From NCBI GenBank assembly GCA_964371245.1, contig CAYJKP010000001.1, positions 379,042 to 443,041 of the forward strand: 64,000 bases of DNA. The letters run 5' to 3'. Below are positions 10,911 through 44,064 of this stretch, one piece after another. Each line of letters starts with the position of its first letter. Position 1 is the stretch's first letter. Below the pieces are notes generated by a model. The model was not told the DNA's origin and did not search any database. It worked only from the letters and a program-made list of their open reading frames with translations. This DNA comes from an uncultured Gammaproteobacteria bacterium. Lineage in GTDB: Bacteria; Patescibacteriota; Patescibacteriia; JAHIZJ01. Both the position numbers and the translations under genes were made by a program.

Positions 10911-10938
10911 TTGACAGACGATATCCTTCTGGTATACT
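10911..10938 (+). promoter_or_regulatory. sigma70-like promoter of the rplJ-rplL operon (TTGACA-16-TATACT)
   Basis: Consensus -35 and good -10, about 140 nt upstream of rplJ. Confidence 0.6.
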
Positions 10939-11076
10939 GTGGATATTACCGCAGACAGAGGGCCCCAGTACCCGAACGTACGTGAGTGGTGCTGGGTTAA
11001 TACACCAGCCTTCCGAGGTATAAATACATTTGTATTTTTTGTCTGCGGCCAGCAGATTTTTTTGTTAACAACCAAT
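10939..11076 (+). promoter_or_regulatory. ribosomal protein L10 leader (autoregulatory 5' UTR with attenuator hairpins plus U-runs at ~11028-11040 and 11042-11063)
   Basis: Structured leader between promoter and rplJ ATG. TCTGCggccaGCAGA followed by TTTTTTT sits immediately before the RBS. Confidence 0.55.
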
Positions 11077-29606: not shown

Positions 29607-29631
29607 CTAACCAACTACTGGTTAGTTTTTG
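29607..29631 (+). promoter_or_regulatory. leader hairpin plus U-run (possible attenuator) in the 5' UTR of the adhesin gene
   Basis: CTAACCAactacTGGTTAG followed by TTTTTG, about 65 nt before the RBS AAGGAG. Confidence 0.45.
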
Positions 29632-29694
29632 TTTATATATCAATTGTGGCAATTTAAAGAGATAGCTTACTCATTTAAAGAAGGAGACAATAAA

Positions 29695-32600
29695 ATGAAG
29701 ACTGAAAAATTAGCAAGCCAGCGTTCGTTAAAAAATAAAATATCAAAAGTATTTAATATAGTTGCACAAACGAGCCTGGTTTTTTACTATACGCTCGGGC
29801 CGGCGATGCTATTGGCGCCGCAAAAGGCAGCCGCTGCGACCGTTGGAAATGACGTATCAAAAGTTACAGCCAATACAGCAGTTGTGCCGGCGTCGCTACT
29901 GGCAGATACTGGCTATCAACTGCCGACAGATACTCATTCGCCTAATGAGTGGGGCGAGGGTTCTCTCGGTGATGCCAGCAATGCACTCACGGATAACGGT
30001 CAGTATGCCCAAGACGATGACGAAGGCAATGAGCAAGGTTATCAAGATTTCGGTTTTTCCATTCCAGCGGGCTCTACCATCCGGGGTATCAGTGTCAAAG
30101 CGGAAGCTAAGTCATCGGACGTCAGTGGATGCGTGCTGCAGATGAAACTGTCATGGAATAACGGAAGTAACTACACAAGCAACTGGAAGACAGACGCCCT
30201 GACCGGAACAGATGCGATCCTCGATTTTGGCGGTTCAGCCGATGACTGGGGTCGAAACTGGTCACCGGCAAATTTTACTGATGCAAACTTTGTCGTAAAA
30301 ATGGCCTATGACGATTTAGGTCCAGGAAATACTTGTCAAAGCTCAACAGTATCAGTTGATTATCTTCAGGCAAAGGTTGATTTCATGCCGCCAGCTGTGC
30401 CGCTGCCAAACCCGGTTCTTCCAAGTTCATGCGGCCTCGATATGGGTCTTGTGATCGATAGTTCAGGCAGTATTGACTCGACCGAACTCGGGCAGATGAA
30501 GACGGCGTTCAATGCATTTGTTGACGCCTTTTTACCCGGAACACCGACCCAGATGAGCGTGGTCGAGTTCGATACAAATGTTATTCCGCCAACGCTCGGG
30601 TTCACGGATAATGTTACTAATATAAAAAACCGGATCAACACATCGTCCAGTGGTGGTTATACGAACTGGGAAGATGCGCTAGTTGAATCGCATAGCCTCT
30701 TTCCAAATCGAGCTGCGAAACCAGACTTACTGGTGTTTGCCTCGGATGGGAATCCGAATACGATCGGAACAACGCCGCCGTCGGATGGCGGCGGGGCGAC
30801 CGAAACAGTTGCGGTCAATGCAGCAGTTGCGGCAGCCAATGCCGCGAAGACCGACGGTATTCGAGTACTTGCATTAGGCATTGGTAATGATCTTGATATA
30901 AACAACCTGAAAGCCATTTCCGGAACAAATGTGAATACCGGAATAACGTCTGATGTGATAACTTCGGATTTCGAAACGTTGGCCGAGGATCTGGCGGAAT
31001 ATGCTCATACGCTTTGCGGTGGTAAAATTCTTGTCCAAAAACAATTTGATACGAATGGCGATGGAGTGCCAGAGCTTGATGGTTCAGTGCCCGATCCACT
31101 TCTTAGTGGATGGACGTTTGACGTCAATGGTTCGCCCTCGAATCCCGATGCCCAAACTACAACGAACACCGGATCGCTTGAATTTTCTGTTCAGAACGGA
31201 ACATATTCGGTAATAGAAACAAACCTGAAACCTGACACCGCGCTGTCGAGCGCCCAGTGCGTAAAGGGTACAACGCCAGTCGGTATATACGATCCTATCA
31301 CCCGAACGATATCAGGTTTAACAATGAATACCGATGAGACAATCAGTTGTCGCTTTGTAAATTCTACGACCGTCGGCGCCCTTCGAGTTACCAAGGTAGT
31401 AAATGGCGGACCGGCTGAACCGGATGATTTCGGCTTTCGTATTGTCGGCTGGCAGGGCGAGTATGAATATCCAGCGAGCGGACAAAATTTTGTCGAATTT
31501 GATAATCTTGTAACCGGCCCGTATTCAGTCGAAGAAACAACGGAACCGAACTACGTTCTCAGCTCAGATTGTGAAAACGTCAATGTCACGGCGGGCCAAA
31601 CGACCGAGTGCACGATGACGAATACCTATCACGAGCCCGAACCACTGACGATTGTGGCGCGCAAAATCGTGTGCGACAATGAGTCCGACCTTCCTGACTG
31701 GGGCGTGAACAGCCCGGCCGGGCCTGATGTTACGGCGGCCACTGCCCAGGATTGGATAAACATACATCCTTCTTGCCATTTCGCGTCAGACTGGCGGTTT
31801 CAATGGTCGTATGACGGCGTTCAGAATCCCGGCGATAACACGGGCGAATCAAGCTCGCCGGATTGGCATACCTTTGGACCGACTGATGATACCGGCCTGG
31901 CTTCAACAACGATCAGCGATTTGCAAGGCACGCCAAAAATCTGGGTGCGTGAAGCCTGGCAAAGTGAGTATATCCCGTTTGCCTCGGTCATTAACACGAA
32001 CGAACCGCAGTATAGCGCTGAGTTTTATTGCCATACCGACGTGCTGAACTTCGACAACTGGGAATGGATCGGCAATCCCGAGCTTGAACACACCTATTAT
32101 TGCATAGCGTTTAACGTTCGACAGACCGGCGAGGTGACGTTTGAGAAGCAGGTCGTCGGCGAAGGTGATCCGAATGATTGGACGTTTACCGTTAATGGAC
32201 ACACCTACGCGAACGGCGAAACAGTAAGTTTGCCGACCGGCGTATATACCGTGATTGAAAATGGCCCTGATGGGTATACAAATACCGGCGTTGCAGGCAT
32301 TTGCTCCCAAGACGCCACTCGGGCGAGCGCTGTTGGCGCCAGGATGAATGTGACCACCGAAGGCGGTACCTGCACGTTTATCAATGAACAGGATACCGGA
32401 ACAATTGTTGTTCATAAAAATGTTCTCGATCCCGAGAATAACGAAACGGCAGACAATCATACATTTGCGGTTCAGGTTGACGGAGCTGACCAGAAATCAG
32501 TCAGCGAATCGACCAATGCTACCTATGACAATGTTCCGGTGGGCGAATATGTGATCACCGAAGTACCGGACGGAGATTATGACCTGGTATCAATCACGAA

Positions 32601-34944
32601 CAACGGCTATATCAAAGTGAAGAGCGGACAGACTACAGACGTCTATGTGGTGAACAAGCAGAAATATGCCCACCTGACCGTCTTCAAAGACGTTCTCACT
32701 TGGGATAAACAGCCAGTTGATGACAACACCGTATTTACCGCGCACGTCGTTGATGAAAATCAAGGGTTTGATAAACAGATAGAGATTTCTGAGAATGCCC
32801 CTGTTCAACTCGATCAGCTTATTCCAGGCACGTATAAAATCAGCGAAATCGTTGATGAGAACTATTACCTGTTGAATGGGTATGAACCGTCGGACATAGT
32901 CACGCTGGGTTCAAACGGAAAAGCCGAGGTGACTGTATATAACCTCCAGAACCATCATGAAGTCACGCTTGAAAAGACCGACGAACCCGATGCGGTCCAA
33001 GCTGGCGGTTTGCTCACCTACACGTTGAATTGGGAAAATACCGGTACCGCGCCCGTCAACGGATTAACCATTACAGACACTGTGCCGACAGATACTACCT
33101 ATAGTATCTGTACCGGCGGCGAAACCTGCGGTGTGTCGGGCGGAATCGTAACTTGGGATCTCGGCACGCAATACCCGGGCGCGAAAGGCAGTGTTACGCT
33201 CACGGTACTGGTCAATACGCCATTGCGCGACGGCACAATAATTTATAACAACGAAGCCTCGATATTCTCGAAAGAAACGAAACCAGTATATGCTTCAGCA
33301 GAAACAACGGTAAAGTCTGACTTCAATGTAATTCTGACGAAATCAGCCATCGATCTAACTAATCCCGGAACGAAAATCGACTATACCCTGAACTGGTCGG
33401 TCAGCGGTAATTCACCGATCGACAGCCTCGAGATCACTGATCCGATTCCAACCAATACCACATTCGTGGCAGCTTCTGACAGCGGGACTGAAGCCGGCGG
33501 AACAGTAACGTGGGATTTGGGCGTGCATAATCCCGGCGATAGCGGTTTCGTTACGGTGACCGTTCAGGCTGCCTGGCCATTGGCCGATGGGACGGAGATC
33601 ATGAATACCGCCAGATTCTGCGGCCAGGCTGAAAGTTCGGATACACCTGAATTCGCGAAACTGAGCGATGACCAGAATGTCATCGAACACTGCACGACCG
33701 CTGACAAAACAACCACCATCACGTCGTCACCGATATTAACCGTGGTTAAATCAGACACACCGGACCCGGTACTCGCTGGTAGCGAGTTAACGTATGAAAT
33801 TGCCTGGTCAGTCAGCGGCAACAGTCCGGCGACAAATGTCGTGATAACGGATGTCTTACCAGCTGATACAACCTTTGTTTCAGCTGATAGTGGTAGCTAT
33901 GATGTTGCCACTCGGACGGTAACCTGGGCACTGGGAAATAAAGTACCGCCAGATTCCGGCACAGTCATGTTAAAAGTTACTGTGGCTGGAACCGTGCTTG
34001 ACGGTACGAATATCGCAAATACCGTAACCATAGATAGCACAGAAAACGTTCCGGTGACAGACAGCGAAAATACGTTGGTCACAAATGTTCCAATCCTCAC
34101 CCTGACCAAAACCGTTGACGCGACCAAGGCCGTGAATCCGGGCGATGAAGTAAACTACACGGTTACGGTGAAAAATACTGGATACGCGACTGCCAAGAAT
34201 CTCGCTTTGAACGATGTCATGCCAACTGAGCTGTATTACTCAGATGTTCTCGGCTCAAGCCGGACGTTCGTCTCAGGCGGCGACCTGGCGATCGGCGATA
34301 CGCTGACCTTCACCTATCCGGTGACCGTTAAAACCGGCACCGCCGATGGTGATTACGTCAATACGGCGACGCTGACTGCGGATAACTATAAGACCTTGAC
34401 CGCTCAGGCGACAATTGCGGTTACACAGGGAACGGTGAAAGGTGAGACAGCCGTGCCGAAACTGGTGATCGAGAAATCGGTCGATGTATCATTTGCGAAT
34501 CCGGGCGATACGGTAACCTACACCGTGAAGATTTCGAACACCGGCGAAGCGCCAGCCGATCAATTGGTATTAGGCGACATTCTCCCAGCCGGATTCAGTT
34601 TCGTCGAAACCGGCGGTACGACCCGGAGTTGGGATCTCGGCACGCTCGCGCAAGGGAAGAGCGTCACGGTAACCTATGAGGTGGATATCGCAACATCGGT
34701 TGCAGCCGGAACATACGATAATATCGCCACGGCCAGCGCTGACAATGCCGACCCGGTTACAGCCAAGAAAAAACTCGAGGTGAAATCAGTCGAAGTAAAA
34801 GGCGCGGAAGCCGGTCCGGAATTGCCTCAGACAGGCGCCGGCTTGATGGACTACATCATCTTCGGTAGCGCCTTGATAACACTGGCCGGCTCGGCTCTTG
34901 GTCTTCGGCGCAGTGTTCGAGCCACAAAAGTAAAACGGTCATAA
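29695..34944 (+). CDS. giant cell-surface protein: signal peptide, vWA (MIDAS) domain, multiple DUF11/Ig-like repeats, C-terminal LPXTG sortase signal
   Basis: MIDAS DSSGS...SDGNPN. More than 10 repeats with the T(I/V)TDxxPxxTT(F/Y)...GxVTWxLG DUF11 signature. C-terminus LPQTG, then a hydrophobic stretch and RRSVRATKVKRS. Confidence 0.9.
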   Translation: MKTEKLASQRSLKNKISKVFNIVAQTSLVFYYTLGPAMLLAPQKAAAATVGNDVSKVTANTAVVPASLLADTGYQLPTDTHSPNEWGEGSLGDASNALTDNGQYAQDDDEGNEQGYQDFGFSIPAGSTIRGISVKAEAKSSDVSGCVLQMKLSWNNGSNYTSNWKTDALTGTDAILDFGGSADDWGRNWSPANFTDANFVVKMAYDDLGPGNTCQSSTVSVDYLQAKVDFMPPAVPLPNPVLPSSCGLDMGLVIDSSGSIDSTELGQMKTAFNAFVDAFLPGTPTQMSVVEFDTNVIPPTLGFTDNVTNIKNRINTSSSGGYTNWEDALVESHSLFPNRAAKPDLLVFASDGNPNTIGTTPPSDGGGATETVAVNAAVAAANAAKTDGIRVLALGIGNDLDINNLKAISGTNVNTGITSDVITSDFETLAEDLAEYAHTLCGGKILVQKQFDTNGDGVPELDGSVPDPLLSGWTFDVNGSPSNPDAQTTTNTGSLEFSVQNGTYSVIETNLKPDTALSSAQCVKGTTPVGIYDPITRTISGLTMNTDETISCRFVNSTTVGALRVTKVVNGGPAEPDDFGFRIVGWQGEYEYPASGQNFVEFDNLVTGPYSVEETTEPNYVLSSDCENVNVTAGQTTECTMTNTYHEPEPLTIVARKIVCDNESDLPDWGVNSPAGPDVTAATAQDWINIHPSCHFASDWRFQWSYDGVQNPGDNTGESSSPDWHTFGPTDDTGLASTTISDLQGTPKIWVREAWQSEYIPFASVINTNEPQYSAEFYCHTDVLNFDNWEWIGNPELEHTYYCIAFNVRQTGEVTFEKQVVGEGDPNDWTFTVNGHTYANGETVSLPTGVYTVIENGPDGYTNTGVAGICSQDATRASAVGARMNVTTEGGTCTFINEQDTGTIVVHKNVLDPENNETADNHTFAVQVDGADQKSVSESTNATYDNVPVGEYVITEVPDGDYDLVSITNNGYIKVKSGQTTDVYVVNKQKYAHLTVFKDVLTWDKQPVDDNTVFTAHVVDENQGFDKQIEISENAPVQLDQLIPGTYKISEIVDENYYLLNGYEPSDIVTLGSNGKAEVTVYNLQNHHEVTLEKTDEPDAVQAGGLLTYTLNWENTGTAPVNGLTITDTVPTDTTYSICTGGETCGVSGGIVTWDLGTQYPGAKGSVTLTVLVNTPLRDGTIIYNNEASIFSKETKPVYASAETTVKSDFNVILTKSAIDLTNPGTKIDYTLNWSVSGNSPIDSLEITDPIPTNTTFVAASDSGTEAGGTVTWDLGVHNPGDSGFVTVTVQAAWPLADGTEIMNTARFCGQAESSDTPEFAKLSDDQNVIEHCTTADKTTTITSSPILTVVKSDTPDPVLAGSELTYEIAWSVSGNSPATNVVITDVLPADTTFVSADSGSYDVATRTVTWALGNKVPPDSGTVMLKVTVAGTVLDGTNIANTVTIDSTENVPVTDSENTLVTNVPILTLTKTVDATKAVNPGDEVNYTVTVKNTGYATAKNLALNDVMPTELYYSDVLGSSRTFVSGGDLAIGDTLTFTYPVTVKTGTADGDYVNTATLTADNYKTLTAQATIAVTQGTVKGETAVPKLVIEKSVDVSFANPGDTVTYTVKISNTGEAPADQLVLGDILPAGFSFVETGGTTRSWDLGTLAQGKSVTVTYEVDIATSVAAGTYDNIATASADNADPVTAKKKLEVKSVEVKGAEAGPELPQTGAGLMDYIIFGSALITLAGSALGLRRSVRATKVKRS

Positions 34945-34953
34945 TACGACTGC

Positions 34954-35532
34954 ATGTCGGATAATACGAAGCGGCTGGTTTCTTCACGAGCCAGCCGCCT
35001 TCTGAAAATAGTATTTATCGTTCTGGCCGTTCTCGCGGCTGTGGTTGTAATTTATCCGTTATATCCGGCCGTTCAGTACCAGGTTGGTTGGGTGCGCCGA
35101 GCGGATCGTTTGCCCTCACTGCAAAATTCCGAGCCACCTGCAGAGAATCGGCTCGTCATACCGAAGATCGGGGTGGATACGCAGATAGTTGAGGGTAAGA
35201 CCGAAGCAACGCTGTATAAGGGCGTTTGGCGCGTTCCAAGCGGTTCTACGCCGGATGTTGGGAGCAATACCGTCTTGACAGGCCATCGTTTTCAGTACCG
35301 GCCGCCGAATAACACAACCTTTTATTTGCTGGATAAGTTGACGGTCGGGGATGAAGTGATTGTCTTTTGGAACCAAGTAAAGTATCAATACAAAGTTACG
35401 GAAACGAAAGTCGTCGCGAATAACGACTTCTCGATCCAATCAGCCACGAGCGATCCACGGCTCACGCTCTACACCTGCACGCCGTTATTCTCAACCACGA
35501 AACGACTGGTTGTGATCGCGTCGCCGATATAA
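34954..35532 (+). CDS. sortase (class E/D-like transpeptidase)
   Basis: N-terminal TM anchor, catalytic His in LTGHR, Cys in TLYTCTP (TLXTC motif) and a conserved Arg. Confidence 0.85.
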   Translation: MSDNTKRLVSSRASRLLKIVFIVLAVLAAVVVIYPLYPAVQYQVGWVRRADRLPSLQNSEPPAENRLVIPKIGVDTQIVEGKTEATLYKGVWRVPSGSTPDVGSNTVLTGHRFQYRPPNNTTFYLLDKLTVGDEVIVFWNQVKYQYKVTETKVVANNDFSIQSATSDPRLTLYTCTPLFSTTKRLVVIASPI

Positions 35533-35639
35533 CAATACGGCACTCCCTGATCAAGCATGCTGTTATTCGCTCTTATCCCTTAGAGGCAAGTGGGTTGACG
35601 ATAATATAGAATGTGTTTAAATGACAGTATATAAGGAAC

Positions 35640-36050
35640 ATGGATAATACTGAAAAATATCTAAGTTTTGAAGAAACCTGCGGAAAGCCCCTCAAGTCAT
35701 ATTTTGCGATAGATGGCGAAAAACGCAATGTAGAAATATGTACGAAAAAAAAGGCCGTACATAACAGTTCTCACCCGCTCGAAGAAAGTCCAACTGTTTT
35801 TTATAATTTAAAAAATGTACTTTTATATCCTGATTATACTAGAACTTCAAAATCAAAGAATTCTTTATCAAAAAAACATATAGAAACCGCCAAAGAGGTA
35901 AAAGAATACACAAAAAAGAATTTTATTGAAAAGTTAAATCTACCTGGTGGATATGAACGAGGTGATGCGACGCTTATAGTTAAATATGGTGATAAAGATA
36001 CTGGTAAGAATTATACCTTGACTTACAGGATTAATTCTCCATCATCATGA
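35640..36050 (+). CDS. hypothetical protein (AT-rich cassette gene 1)
   Basis: 136-aa Lys/Tyr/Asn-rich ORF in a ~32% GC segment. Confidence 0.5.
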   Translation: MDNTEKYLSFEETCGKPLKSYFAIDGEKRNVEICTKKKAVHNSSHPLEESPTVFYNLKNVLLYPDYTRTSKSKNSLSKKHIETAKEVKEYTKKNFIEKLNLPGGYERGDATLIVKYGDKDTGKNYTLTYRINSPSS

Positions 36051-36319
36051 AATACCCTAATTTTAATGATTGGTTCATTTCATATGATCCTTATACAGAC
36101 TTTTTTCAAATGTATGACGAGAGTATTTTAAAGAGTTATAAGGAAGACTTGGTGTTGAAAAAAAATGGTCATGCAAGACTATATTTTAGCAAAAGATCTC
36201 CCAAGCTGTTATTGATAGAGGTCGATGGGGTATATGATAAATTTAAAAAAGATATAAACAGTATGACAAAAAAGCAGGTTGTCGGTTTGATAAAACCATT
36301 AATTAATTCATTTATTTAA
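36047..36319 (+). CDS. hypothetical protein (AT-rich cassette gene 2)
   Basis: ATGA start/stop overlap with gene 1 suggests translational coupling. Confidence 0.5.
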   Translation: MKYPNFNDWFISYDPYTDFFQMYDESILKSYKEDLVLKKNGHARLYFSKRSPKLLLIEVDGVYDKFKKDINSMTKKQVVGLIKPLINSFI

Positions 36320-36323
36320 TTTT

Positions 36324-36587
36324 ATGGCAGAAAATCAGCAACAAAAAATTACAATTATTAGCAAGCCCATTGGAATAGCATCAGATGGCAACGCAATAAA
36401 TGTACAAGAAAATGGAAATGTTGAATTAATATTTTTCCAAATTGTTCAGAAACTAGAACATGAGCTTCAGGTACAGGGAGTTGCAAATATTCGAATGAAT
36501 ATTGGTCAATTAGAGCAATTTATGCGTATATGTAATCAGGCCATTTCTGAATATAAGAAAAAACAGGAAGATAAAAAAAGTGCATAA
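36324..36587 (+). CDS. hypothetical protein (AT-rich cassette gene 3)
   Basis: Starts 4 nt after gene 2. Acidic/helical C-terminus. Confidence 0.5.
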   Translation: MAENQQQKITIISKPIGIASDGNAINVQENGNVELIFFQIVQKLEHELQVQGVANIRMNIGQLEQFMRICNQAISEYKKKQEDKKSA

Positions 36588-36695
36588 ATTCTATAATCTT
36601 CTCGACAATGCTATCCAATCACTCGCATTAGTAAAAGCTGGAAAATCTGTCCGTTCCGGTGGTTATACAAATTAAGAAAGTTTTTATGAATTATT

Positions 36696-36724
36696 ACGAC
36701 GGCAATATAGGTGCCGTCGTTTTA
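36696..36724 (+). terminator. hairpin terminator after the AT-rich cassette
   Basis: ACGACGGCA-atatagg-TGCCGTCGT followed by TTT. Confidence 0.5.
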
Positions 36725-36790
36725 GCATTGACAAAAAGACAAATTTATAGTATCCTTTACTGTTGAGCAATTACTTTGTACAATACAGGT

Positions 36791-38307: not shown

Positions 38308-39780
38308 GTGTTGCATAAATCCCAGATAACCAGCCTTTGTTTCATTGGTTTATTGACGGGCGTATTGGTGCGCTCGTTTTATAGTTGGCCGCAAAGCCTG
38401 ACGCTGGTTGTGGCCAGCTTGTCGTTTGCCATTATTTTATTGAAAAGTCGATATGGCCTGGCCGCGATGGTGTTTATAATTGCGGCAAGTTTTGGCGCAA
38501 CCTATTATGCGTACCGATTGCCGTCGTCATCGCCCGGCAATATTGAATATTACAATGATTCCAAGGTTGAAATTATCGGACGTGTTCAAACCGAGGTGGA
38601 CCGTCGGACGACCGGGCAGACAATCGTTTTATCTGTTACCAACGCTCTGGCACCGGTACATCGGGAAATGCGGGGGAGGGTATTGCTCAAACTGCCGCTC
38701 TATCCAGAAATAGCGTATGGCGAAATCATGCGCGTAACGTGTCAATTGGAGAAACCCGAGCCGTTCAACGATTTTGCCTATGACCGGTATTTAGCGGTGG
38801 CGCATATTTATACCATCTGCAATTGGCCGAAAATTATCGAGCGACGTTCTCAGAACGAAATCTCATTTAGCGGAACCGTCCTCGCAGTAAAAAAGAAATT
38901 CCTCAATCGTTTAAACGCTATCATGCCCGAACCGCAGGCTTCGCTGTTGGCCGGTTTACTTGTTGGGTCGCGTCAGGGAATACCAGACGATATTAATGAG
39001 GATTTTAAGCGCACCGGGCTATCACATATTATTGCCATCTCCGGCTATAACATCACGATCATTGCGACCTGTATTCTAGGCATGACCAAGAGGCTGATTG
39101 GGCGAAAGAGAAGCTTCTGGTTTGTTGTCGGTGTGCTTGGCGTTTTTGTCATCCTCACCGGTGCTCAGGCATCTGTTGTCCGGGCAGCCGTTATGGGCAT
39201 AACTGTATTATTATCTCGTTACCTCGGCCGACAGACCGACCTCAGTGTCATTATTCTGTTGGCAGCGGGGGTAATGGTGTTGATTAACCCGCTGGTGTTA
39301 GCGTTTGACATTGGGTTTCAGCTGTCATTTTTGGCGACGATCGGACTTGTCTATCTAAGTCAAAAAATGGATCGGTTTTTCGGCTGGGTGCCCGAATCTT
39401 TTTCAATGCGCGAATCAGTTCGCTCAACGCTCTCTGCCACAATTATGACGTTGCCATTGCTGATTTATTATTTCGGACGCGTCTCTATAATCTCGCCGCT
39501 GGCCAATTGTATAATATTGCCGATCATTCCATTGGTGATGGCGACTGGGTTTATTGCGGTTGTCGTGGGTCTGATCTGGAACCAACTGGGTCTGTGGCTG
39601 AGCGTCTTTCCCTGGTTTGGACTTGACTATATGATCCGGGCTATCCGACTCCTGGCTCAATTTCGGTATGCCTCAATGGAAAGCATTCAAATACCACCGA
39701 GCATGGTTTGGTTTGCCTACGGATTTATAATCATCGGAGCGTTACTCAAGTGCTTTCGAACGAAAAATAAACGAATATGA
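38308..39780 (+). CDS. comEC: DNA internalization channel ComEC/Rec2 (DUF4131 + competence membrane domain only)
   Basis: N-terminal DUF4131-like OB region, then a polytopic competence domain (GLSHIIAISGYNITII). Confidence 0.8.
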   Translation: MLHKSQITSLCFIGLLTGVLVRSFYSWPQSLTLVVASLSFAIILLKSRYGLAAMVFIIAASFGATYYAYRLPSSSPGNIEYYNDSKVEIIGRVQTEVDRRTTGQTIVLSVTNALAPVHREMRGRVLLKLPLYPEIAYGEIMRVTCQLEKPEPFNDFAYDRYLAVAHIYTICNWPKIIERRSQNEISFSGTVLAVKKKFLNRLNAIMPEPQASLLAGLLVGSRQGIPDDINEDFKRTGLSHIIAISGYNITIIATCILGMTKRLIGRKRSFWFVVGVLGVFVILTGAQASVVRAAVMGITVLLSRYLGRQTDLSVIILLAAGVMVLINPLVLAFDIGFQLSFLATIGLVYLSQKMDRFFGWVPESFSMRESVRSTLSATIMTLPLLIYYFGRVSIISPLANCIILPIIPLVMATGFIAVVVGLIWNQLGLWLSVFPWFGLDYMIRAIRLLAQFRYASMESIQIPPSMVWFAYGFIIIGALLKCFRTKNKRI

Positions 39781-40694
39781 AACATCGGCGCAACCTGAAA
39801 AAAATATATTTTCTCATTATCCTGGCTGTCGTGGCGATCGGCGTACGACAATTCGCCAGTCTGCCGGCGAAGCCAGAAGCAATATTCTTCGACGTCGGCC
39901 AGGGCGATGCTACGCTTATAAACGGTCCACAAAACACACAAATCGTGATTGACGGCGGACCGGACGATACCGTGGTAAAAAAGCTCGGCCAATATCTTCC
40001 CGTCAACGATCGGACGATCGAAATGGTTCTCGTCAGCCACCCGGATAGCGATCATCTCACGGGATTAATCGAACTGGCCCGGCGCTATGCCATCACCTAT
40101 GTCATCCAGCCGGCGTTTACGGCCGAATCGCCAATGATCGAAGAATGGCGCGCTGTCCTCAAGGAAAAGAACATTTCAGTCATCGAGGCTGCTGCCGGGA
40201 TGAATTTCACTTTTCCGAGCCAAGGCCAGCTAGAAATCTTCTCGCCAAAAAAGGGCGTTGTGTATAAAGATACGAATGCTCAGTCGATAATCTGTGTTTA
40301 TCGGTTAGCTGACATAAAATTACTTTTTCTTGGCGATACGACGCCTGAGTCACAAGACGCCCTTCTTGGAATAAAGGAACTTGAGAATGTCCAATACATT
40401 AAAATATCCCACCACGGTAGCGAAAAATCATATTCAAATAGTTTAATCGACATGATTGATCCAAGCGTGGCGATTATCCAGGTCGGGGCGGATAATCGGT
40501 TCGGCCACCCTTCGCTATCAGTCATCAAGCAGCTGAATGAAAGAAACATCACCCTGCGAAGGACTGACCAGGAAGGCGATATCGTTGTTCCGTTGACCGC
40601 TGACACTGACATACAAAATAGCGCTCCAATATTTGAAAAAATTCTATTTGTATGGTATAATCTAGTTAGAAACATTAAATCGTTGCTAACATGA
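39777..40694 (+). CDS. metallo-beta-lactamase-fold protein corresponding to the ComEC C-terminal nuclease domain, encoded separately
   Basis: DVGQGDATLI, VSHPDSDHLTG and ISHHGS MBL motifs; start overlaps the comEC stop (ATGA). Confidence 0.75.
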   Translation: MKHRRNLKKIYFLIILAVVAIGVRQFASLPAKPEAIFFDVGQGDATLINGPQNTQIVIDGGPDDTVVKKLGQYLPVNDRTIEMVLVSHPDSDHLTGLIELARRYAITYVIQPAFTAESPMIEEWRAVLKEKNISVIEAAAGMNFTFPSQGQLEIFSPKKGVVYKDTNAQSIICVYRLADIKLLFLGDTTPESQDALLGIKELENVQYIKISHHGSEKSYSNSLIDMIDPSVAIIQVGADNRFGHPSLSVIKQLNERNITLRRTDQEGDIVVPLTADTDIQNSAPIFEKILFVWYNLVRNIKSLLT

Positions 40695-43987: not shown

Positions 43988-44064
43988 TGGCGGAGCGGAC
44001 GGGACTCGAACCCGCGACCTCTGCCGTGACAGGGCAGCGTTCTAACCAACTGAACTACCGCTCC
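43988..44064 (-). tRNA. tRNA-Asp (GTC)
   Basis: Reverse complement GGAGCGGTAGTTCAGTTGGTTAGAACGCTGCCCTGTCACGGCAGAGGTCGCGGGTTCGAGTCCCGTCCGCTCCGCCA. 7-bp acceptor stem, anticodon loop CTGTCAC, T-loop GGTTCGAGTCC, encoded CCA. Confidence 0.95.

What the first reader, a model, noticed from the sequence alone, without database searches (positions are those of the whole stretch)
35580..36727. Compositionally foreign AT-rich three-gene cassette of unknown function beside the sortase/adhesin/comEC locus
Three tightly packed ORFs of 136, 90 and 87 aa (ATGA overlap, then a 4-nt gap) sit in a ~32% GC block, with sharp boundaries against ~50% GC neighbours. They have their own promoter-like region and a terminator hairpin. 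None shows a recognizable domain. Small translationally coupled gene triplets of alien composition are the typical footprint of horizontally acquired toxin-antitoxin, abortive-infection or anti-phage modules. This is my best candidate in the window for an undescribed small system.
Basis: seen in the sequence. Interest (0 to 1): 0.7.

Follow-up and report, generated by a model that had tools for sequence, protein, structure and literature searches.

The report
Mobile three-gene RNase-toxin-like cassette
A recently acquired, AT-rich three-gene operon in an ultra-small (Patescibacteria) bacterium most likely encodes an undescribed RNA-cutting toxin, its inhibitor and a third helper protein; this is a selfish or anti-virus module of a familiar general kind, but it is built from protein families nobody has catalogued.

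The parts
35607..35612 (+). Candidate -10 promoter box TAGAAT, within the conserved ATAGAATGT at 35606-35614. It marks the 5' limit of DNA homology between the window cassette and the L001 cassette.
   Evidence: DNA alignment A4 and sequence. Transcription start not demonstrated.
35640..36050 (+). P1, 136 aa: predicted BECR-fold (PBECR2-like) endoribonuclease, the candidate toxin. It retains K36, H41, N56, S72, K92, T126 and T128.
36047..36319 (+). P2, 90 aa: obligatory partner of P1 with an ATGA stop/start overlap, and the candidate antitoxin or immunity protein. It is a new family with invariant W9 and Y13 and the motif W.ISY.PYTD.FQ.YD.
   Evidence: It follows P1 in 15 of 15 loci with room. 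A solo copy lies in phage-like contigs next to RtcB or a 2H protein.
36324..36587 (+). P3, 87 aa: third component of unknown role. It is a new family with invariant D21, G22, F37, Q39 and R57, and every member ends in a Lys-rich C-terminal tail.
   Evidence: Present in 11 of 12 evaluable loci. One weak DUF3467 hit among 9 homologs. Not SecB-like.
36610..36618 (+). Short conserved non-coding piece GCTATCCAA, downstream of P3.
   Evidence: Identical in L001.
36642..36666 (+). 25-nt block AAAATCTGTCCGTTCCGGTGGTTAT. It is 24/25 identical in the L001 cassette even though synonymous sites are saturated. Its function is unknown, and it is specific to this sub-lineage.
   Evidence: No shared reading frame, no Rfam family, and the predicted hairpin is not conserved.
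36696..36723 (+). Terminator-like stem-loop (9-bp stem, 7-nt loop) followed by TTTT. It marks the 3' edge of the AT-rich block.
   Evidence: Not conserved in L001. It misses the strict scan criteria.

Best explanation
The block is a recently acquired, self-contained operon encoding a tripartite toxin-antitoxin-like conflict module. P1 is a metal-independent endoribonuclease of the BECR fold and is closest to the phage PBECR2 family. Its predicted active site is the invariant His41 together with Lys36, Asn56, Ser72, Lys/Arg92 and the C-terminal Thr126 and Thr128. P2 is translated by stop/start coupling right after P1 and binds and neutralises it. P3 is an accessory component, probably a nucleic-acid-binding regulator or adaptor given its conserved Lys-rich tail. 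When P2 is lost or titrated, for example when the element is lost or a phage shuts off host expression, P1 cleaves cellular RNA (tRNA, rRNA or mRNA), leaving 2',3'-cyclic-phosphate and 5'-OH ends, and arrests growth. The module moves between ultra-small bacteria on, or next to, IS elements, integrases and phage-like elements. Shown here: the gene structure, purifying selection, family membership of all three proteins, recent presence/absence, multiple contexts, and the phage-borne solo P2. Inferred: RNase activity, the P1-P2 interaction, toxicity, and any anti-phage role.
For: (1) Recent acquisition. The GC z-score is -5.3 and the GC3 gap is large. The sister MAG has sortase 98% and CAP 98% identical, carrying consecutive accessions MFA5107451 and MFA5107450, and the run 453 to 447 is fully accounted for by the flanking genes. 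No P1, P2 or P3 relative from that MAG appears in any search.
(2) A conserved unit. P1+P2 occur together in 15 of 15 loci and P3 in 11 of 12. Junctions are overlapping or at most 7 nt apart almost everywhere. pN/pS is 0.31-0.51 with synonymous sites saturated.
(4) P2 as the inhibitor. It is always coupled to P1 and is retained when P3 is replaced (L027). A solo homolog lies in phage-like contigs immediately beside RtcB (E 2.8e-64) or a 2H phosphoesterase (E 2.4e-10), enzymes that repair exactly the RNA ends BECR RNases produce.
(5) Mobility. An IS1595 transposase lies directly downstream in L031, L035 and L042. A tyrosine integrase lies directly upstream in L039. Serine recombinases are nearby in L023 and L025, the latter together with a terminase small subunit.
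Confidence: 0.5

Rival explanations
1. The cassette is a phage- or mobile-element-derived offensive or accessory module (a moron or remnant), not a host TA or defence system. P1 would be a solo PBECR-type RNase used by an element to degrade host or competitor RNA such as mRNA or crRNA. P2 and P3 would be its regulators or self-protection factors. The copy in this genome would be cargo left by an element.
For: PBECR2 is described as a phage-specific family with solo versions in phages (PMC5512222). The best BFVD matches are phage polyvalent, nuclease and MuF-C proteins. L025 places the triplet beside a terminase small subunit and a serine recombinase in flanks that are equally AT-rich. P2 occurs in phage-like contigs. 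Integrase and IS genes lie next to several copies.
Against: No hit in 2.9 million IMG/VR viral contigs with three protein patterns, a P2 DNA pattern and the 25-nt block. No hit in the 50,697 phage records. Most copies sit alone between housekeeping genes with no other phage genes. The phage contigs carry P2 only, never P1.
Confidence: 0.2
2. The cassette is an orphan interbacterial toxin-immunity module. P1 would be a CdiA-CT- or colicin-D-like RNase delivered to neighbouring or host cells by the adjacent cell-surface machinery, and P2 would be the cognate immunity protein.
Against: P1 is a full-length stand-alone protein of 131-145 aa in nearly all of the roughly 47 clusters. It has no signal peptide, no pre-toxin or delivery domain, and no fusion to large exoproteins. 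The adhesin/sortase neighbourhood is unique to the window, and other copies sit next to tgt, dsbA, groES/EL, Rrf2 and similar genes. The sister strain has the same adhesin and sortase without the cassette.
Confidence: 0.12
3. The cassette is not a conflict system. The three small proteins would perform a benign accessory function such as RNA processing or binding, with an inactive or specialised BECR-like domain as in phage Mu MuF. The composition would simply reflect origin from an AT-rich donor.
For: All homology to toxins is sub-threshold. P1 is acidic in half of the homologs. Inactive PBECR domains exist (PMC5512222). P2 and P3 have no recognisable antitoxin features.
Against: His41 is invariant and Lys, Asn, Ser, Lys/Arg and Thr are strongly conserved across about 30%-identical homologs, which argues for a catalytic site. 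Patchy distribution, presence/absence between 98%-identical genomes and repeated association with IS, integrase and recombinase genes are typical of selfish or defence cargo. The phage solo P2 beside RNA-repair enzymes is hard to explain otherwise.
Confidence: 0.13

Closest known systems
PBECR2 (Pfam PF18810) and the wider BECR-fold endoRNases (colicin D/E5, CdiA-CT tRNases, RelE, BrnT, EndoU, barnase)
   Different: All hits are below Pfam's threshold and the window protein has none. PBECR2 was described only inside large phage polyvalent proteins or as phage solos. P1 is instead a stand-alone protein of about 136 aa with an extra N-terminal beta-hairpin, it is always paired with P2 (and usually P3), and it is found mostly in bacterial chromosomes of ultra-small bacteria.
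Type II toxin-antitoxin pairs with toxin-first gene order and RelE/BrnT-like RNase toxins (e.g. BrnT-BrnA, HigB-HigA)
   Same: A small operon with the toxin gene first and a translationally coupled partner. The predicted RNase belongs to the same fold class. Distribution is patchy and mobile.
   Different: P2 has no RHH, HTH, AbrB or Phd-type DNA-binding domain and no homology to any known antitoxin. A conserved third gene is present. There is no consistent charge complementarity.
Tripartite toxin-antitoxin-chaperone (TAC) systems such as HigB1-HigA1-SecB(TA) of Mycobacterium tuberculosis (comparison from general knowledge)
   Same: The gene order matches: a RelE-fold toxin, then an antitoxin, then a small third protein predicted by eye to be a beta-sheet plus a C-terminal helix.
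   Different: P3 is not detectably SecB-like. The hhalign probability is 0.06% against validated E. coli SecB, there is no Pfam SecB hit, and it is about half the size of SecB.
Phage-encoded antitoxin mimics and RNA-repair counter-defence (T4 Dmd against RnlA/LsoA; T4 Pnk/Rnl1 repair of PrrC-cleaved tRNA; comparison from general knowledge)
   Same: A phage-like lineage carries only the putative inhibitor (P2), immediately next to RtcB ligase or a 2H phosphoesterase. That is the arrangement expected for countering an RNase toxin.
   Different: No experiment links this phage, P2 and P1. The evidence comes from a single set of related contigs, and their host is unknown.

Membership tests
PBECR2 (PF18810) / BECR-fold RNase | Sequence match to the family model at or above the curated gathering score (27.1 bits) | tested here: not met
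   The window P1 has no PBECR2 hit at E <= 10. Four of 48 relatives hit below threshold: best E 3.7e-5, P0006 at 16 bits, P0028 at 14.3 bits.
PBECR2 (PF18810) / BECR-fold RNase | BECR core fold: an N-terminal helix followed by a 4-5-stranded antiparallel sheet | tested here: inconclusive
PBECR2 (PF18810) / BECR-fold RNase | [quoted passage not shown] | tested here: met
   H41 is present in 47 of 47 residues at that column, T/S126 in 43 of 48 and T/S128 in 43 of 48. K36 (44), N56 (46), S72 (44) and K/R92 (46) are also conserved, and all are present in the window P1.
PBECR2 (PF18810) / BECR-fold RNase | Endoribonuclease activity | not testable with these tools
   Requires biochemistry.
Type II toxin-antitoxin system | Toxin and cognate partner encoded in one tightly coupled operon | tested here: met
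   P2 follows P1 in 15 of 15 loci. The junction ranges from -11 to +5 nt except in one locus (+38).
Type II toxin-antitoxin system | Antitoxin carries a DNA-binding domain and autoregulates the operon | tested here: not met
   No HTH, RHH, AbrB or Phd domain, nor any other domain, was found in 15 P2 and 11 P3 homologs or by PDB profile searches. Autoregulation itself cannot be tested here.
Type II toxin-antitoxin system | Toxicity of the toxin that is neutralised by the antitoxin | not testable with these tools
   Requires expression experiments.
Toxin-antitoxin-chaperone (TAC) systems | Third gene encodes a SecB-like chaperone | tested here: not met
   hhalign of the P3 profile against E. coli SecB gives probability 0.06%, with the SecB sequence validated against PDB 5jtl. 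There is no SecB Pfam hit.
Known anti-phage defence systems (PADLOC-DB v2) | Match of any component to a catalogued defence protein model | tested here: not met
   No hit for P1, P2 or P3 at E <= 10.
Polymorphic / contact-dependent toxin-immunity modules (CdiA-CT/CdiI type) | Toxin domain at the C-terminus of, or orphaned downstream of, a large delivery protein that shares a pre-toxin region | tested here: not met
   P1 homologs are stand-alone proteins of 131-145 aa that match full-length. The adhesin neighbour is unique to the window, and the sister strain has the adhesin and sortase without the cassette.
DUF3467 (PF11950), considered for P3 | Sequence match to the family model | tested here: inconclusive
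   One of 9 P3 homologs scanned hits at E 0.014 (15.9 bits against a cutoff of 25), covering residues 31-82 against profile positions 39-86 of 92. The other eight do not hit.
IS/transposon passenger or integron cassette | Terminal inverted repeats, target-site duplications or attC bounding the unit | tested here: not met
   No consistent repeats across loci. The window's boundary inverted repeat is matched by 130 of 300 shuffles. In L035 an inverted-repeat pair (82% complementary) brackets the transposase gene alone and excludes the cassette.

The most novel reading that the evidence does not exclude
P1-P2-P3 is a previously uncatalogued three-component abortive-infection or defence system of ultra-small (CPR/Patescibacteria) bacteria. 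A PBECR2-like RNase would be held in check by a new inhibitor family (P2) and controlled by a new Lys-tailed sensor or regulator (P3). Their phages would counter it with a captured P2 decoy placed next to RtcB and 2H RNA-repair enzymes. That would be a complete defence and counter-defence pair visible in metagenomes of organisms in which almost no immunity beyond R-M and CRISPR is known.
Probability: 0.25. Interest if true: 0.75.

Novelty: new variant of a known kind. Interest (0 to 1): 0.55.

Why it matters
Patescibacteria have tiny genomes and are mostly uncultured. Few conflict systems have been described in them, and this cassette matches no model in the standard defence catalogue used here (PADLOC). 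If the reading is correct, this is a new three-protein toxin module. Its toxin links the phage-only PBECR2 RNases to chromosomal TA-like operons, and its two partner families have no relatives in Pfam, NCBIfam, PHROGs or PDB. The presence/absence difference between 98%-identical genomes gives a natural before-and-after pair. The phage-borne solo P2 beside RNA-repair genes predicts what P1 does and how phages escape it, and that prediction can be tested. The proteins are small (87-136 aa), so toxicity and rescue assays in E. coli would be simple. The family is small (about 47 clusters at 50% identity) and the general principle of an RNase toxin plus inhibitor is well known, so this extends current understanding and does not change it.

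Tried and rejected
1. Direct family searches of the three window proteins and the L001 versions against Pfam, PADLOC, PHROGs and NCBIfam gave only noise.
2. Profile searches of P1, P2 and P3 against PDB sequences, with 2-sequence and then enlarged alignments, found nothing.
3. AF2 of P1 with a 2-sequence alignment failed (pLDDT 33). It worked only with the 48-sequence alignment.
4. P2 and P3 could not be modelled. The afdb50 fold library was unavailable.
5. Foldseek of the P1 model against PDB gave no meaningful hits.
6. Viral-contig scans with protein patterns, a P2 DNA pattern and the 25-nt block found nothing, and tblastn of P1 against phage records found no match.
7. P3 as a SecB-like chaperone (the TAC idea) is rejected at sequence level. 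P2 against SecB and P2 against P3 are also unrelated.
8. P3 as DUF3467 rests on only 1 of 9 weak hits and is kept as a lead only. My by-eye impression that P2 resembles DUF2283 received no support from any scan.
9. The basic-toxin/acidic-antitoxin charge signature is absent.
10. Terminal repeats marking an element were not found consistently, and the window's boundary inverted repeat is chance.
11. Co-divergence of the cassette with the adjacent IS1595 transposases is not supported, because the pairwise identity rankings disagree.
12. A hairpin, an Rfam family or a shared ORF as the explanation for the conserved 25-nt block was not supported.
13. P0051, a 976-aa hit in the HMMER search, is an unrelated Flg_new repeat protein.

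Full report
OBSERVATION. The three ORFs exist exactly as reported: P1 at 35640-36050 (136 aa), P2 at 36047-36319 (90 aa, ATGA overlap) and P3 at 36324-36587 (87 aa, 4-nt gap), all on the + strand. In 300-nt windows GC falls from 0.50-0.55 to 0.29-0.31 and recovers within about 150 nt at each edge. The reported span has GC 0.314, against 0.492 +/- 0.033 for all other windows of the same length (minimum 0.408), giving z = -5.3. GC3 is 0.22-0.31 against 0.52-0.65 in the adhesin, sortase, CAP and ComEC neighbours. A stem-loop at 36696-36720 followed by TTTT closes the block.

ARE THEY GENES? A search of 5.8 billion proteins found one P1 relative (54% identity) in another Patescibacteria MAG and only self-matches for P2 and P3. 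The locus of that relative, L001 (identical to L014), carries the same three genes of 139, 88 and 89 aa. They are 54%, 52% and 43% identical to the window's. Between the two cassettes synonymous sites are saturated (pS 0.66-0.80), while pN/pS is 0.31-0.51 for all three genes. All three are therefore protein-coding and under purifying selection.

HORIZONTAL ACQUISITION. In L001 the cassette lies between tgt and small membrane-protein/dsbA genes. It is again AT-rich there, at 0.27 against 0.46. An exhaustive HMMER search of 1.84 billion cluster representatives with the P1 profile returned 47 credible clusters, nearly all 131-145 aa and matching full-length; a 48th hit, P0051, is an unrelated repeat protein. 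I sampled their contexts, and also ran a metagenome scan with a hand-designed P2-motif DNA pattern. Together these gave 16 independent lineages. P2 follows P1 in 15 of 15 loci with room, and P3 follows in 11 of 12. The exception is L027, where a 213-aa P1 and a P2 are followed by unrelated genes at native GC. Neighbourhoods are unrelated to one another.

Six of the 16 have a mobile-element gene nearby. An IS1595-family transposase lies directly downstream and convergent in L031, L035 and L042. A tyrosine integrase lies directly upstream in L039. A serine recombinase plus a terminase small subunit are nearby in L025, and a resolvase is nearby in L023. The cassette is more AT-rich than its flanks in most loci, but not where the flanks are themselves AT-rich, as in L025 and L039.

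The most telling evidence is a sister Patescibacteria MAG. Its sortase and CAP proteins are 98% identical to the window's, and it carries them as consecutive accessions, MFA5107451 and MFA5107450. No P1, P2 or P3 relative from that MAG appeared in any search. The cassette is thus a presence/absence polymorphism between near-identical genomes. Given its un-ameliorated composition, gain is more likely than loss. One caveat applies: I could not fetch the sister's DNA, so a pseudogenised remnant is not formally excluded. All contigs carrying exactly this sortase that extend far enough do have the cassette.

WHAT ARE THE PROTEINS? Searched singly, none of the three hits Pfam, PADLOC, PHROGs, NCBIfam or PDB.

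P2 and P3. Both are new families. P2 has invariant W9 and Y13 and the motif W.ISY.PYTD.FQ.YD. P3 has invariant D21, G22, F37, Q39 and R57, and every member ends in a Lys-rich tail. One of 9 P3 homologs gives a weak DUF3467 hit (E 0.014) and the other eight do not. The idea that P3 is a SecB-like chaperone, as in TAC systems, is rejected at sequence level (hhalign probability 0.06%). P2 and P3 are unrelated to each other.

THE PHAGE CLUE. The P2-motif scan also recovered four related phage-like contigs: L029, L032, L034 and L037. They carry NinG, Amidase_2, a lysozyme-like domain and HNH. They have a solo P2 homolog of 124 aa with a roughly 40-aa N-terminal extension and GC 0.28-0.31, and no P1 or P3. 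This gene lies immediately next to RtcB (E 2.8e-64) in L029 and next to a 2H/2'-5' RNA-ligase-superfamily protein (E 2.4e-10) in L032. Metal-independent BECR RNases leave 2',3'-cyclic-phosphate and 5'-OH ends, and RtcB and 2H enzymes act on exactly those ends (established knowledge). An inhibitor decoy placed beside RNA-repair genes is what a phage countering a P1-type RNase would be expected to carry. This is one phage lineage and therefore a single observation.

MECHANISM. The best-supported reading, at about 50% confidence, is a tripartite toxin-antitoxin-like conflict module. P1 would be the RNase toxin, P2 its co-translated inhibitor and P3 an accessory regulator or adaptor, and the module would be spread by or alongside mobile elements. 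The rivals are a phage or mobile-element offensive module left as cargo (about 20%), an orphan interbacterial toxin-immunity pair (about 12%) and a non-conflict function (about 13%). The points against the main reading are these. All toxin homology is sub-threshold. There is no charge complementarity. P2 and P3 have no DNA-binding domain. PADLOC gives no hit. The neighbourhoods are not defence islands.

UNEXPLAINED. DNA homology between the window and L001 cassettes begins at a conserved -10-like ATAGAATGT (35606-35614) and continues about 85 nt past the P3 stop. There a 25-nt block (36642-36666) is 24/25 identical and a 9-nt piece (36610-36618) is identical, even though synonymous sites are saturated. 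No shared reading frame, conserved hairpin or Rfam family explains the block. It is absent from the other cassette lineages and from viral contigs. It may be a protein-binding, RNA-processing or recombination site specific to this sub-lineage.

VERDICT. The feature is real and was recently acquired. It belongs to an uncatalogued family of three-gene cassettes whose first gene is most likely a PBECR2-like RNase toxin. I rate it a new variant of a known kind (RNase toxin plus inhibitor modules), of moderate-to-good interest and readily testable.

Noticed in passing
L029 4543-6459; L032 5655-6611; L034 1217-3927; L037: Related phage-like metagenome contigs carry a solo P2 homolog (124 aa; a 227-aa fused form in L029) directly beside RtcB RNA ligase or a 2H/2'-5' RNA-ligase-superfamily gene. 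HNH, NinG, amidase and lysozyme-like genes lie nearby, and there is no P1 or P3.
   Followed up: partly
L029 4532; L032 8019 and 6040 (- strand); L034 1584; L037 1981 and 1574 (- strand): In those phage-like contigs many genes end in ...KKD-stop and the next begins MTD.... The shared junction sequence GAAGGACTAACYATGACAGACA (RBS + stop + start) recurs at six or more gene boundaries. It could be a recombination or mosaic boundary, or a translational-coupling element.
   Followed up: partly
L031 188-1054; L035 8515-9387; L042 4738-5616: An IS1595-family (ISXO2-like DDE) transposase lies immediately downstream of P3 and convergent with it in three separate cassette lineages. The three transposases are 40-51% identical to each other, but their similarity ranking differs from that of the cassettes, so the linkage is recurrent without being clearly co-inherited.
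   Followed up: partly
window 36582-36677 (GTG start, 31 aa) and L001 10947-11048 (33 aa): A short ORF overlaps the P3 stop in both cassettes. The two share only their N-terminal half (F..LLD.AIQ). Downstream the reading frames differ while the nucleotides are conserved, so it is probably not a conserved peptide.
   Followed up: partly
window 29629-35532: A 1771-aa VWA/CLIPPER-repeat surface protein ends in an LPQTG sorting signal, a hydrophobic helix and a basic tail. It is followed directly by a sortase, so this is a sortase-substrate pair in a Patescibacteria genome.
   Followed up: no
window 38308-40694: ComEC appears split. The DUF4131 + Competence membrane part (ending at 39780) and the metallo-beta-lactamase domain (39777-40694) are separate ORFs that overlap by 4 nt.
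   Followed up: no
L027 4661-7065 (also L028): A variant cassette at native GC (0.51). P1 has a roughly 70-aa N-terminal extension (213 aa) and an acidic P2 (pI 4.2), and these are followed by unrelated 177-aa and 313-aa genes in place of P3. This suggests that P1-P2 is the core pair and that the third component is exchangeable.
   Followed up: partly
L030 270-3379: One cassette copy lies directly downstream of a 650-aa DEAD/ResIII-type helicase and a 386-aa protein of unknown function. This is a possible defence-type neighbourhood and was not examined further.
   Followed up: no
window 10931-11071 and 43988-44064: These are ordinary features: a ribosomal protein L10 leader (Rfam RF00557, 44.8 bits, just above the gathering score) and a tRNA-Asp(GTC) on the minus strand.
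   Followed up: no
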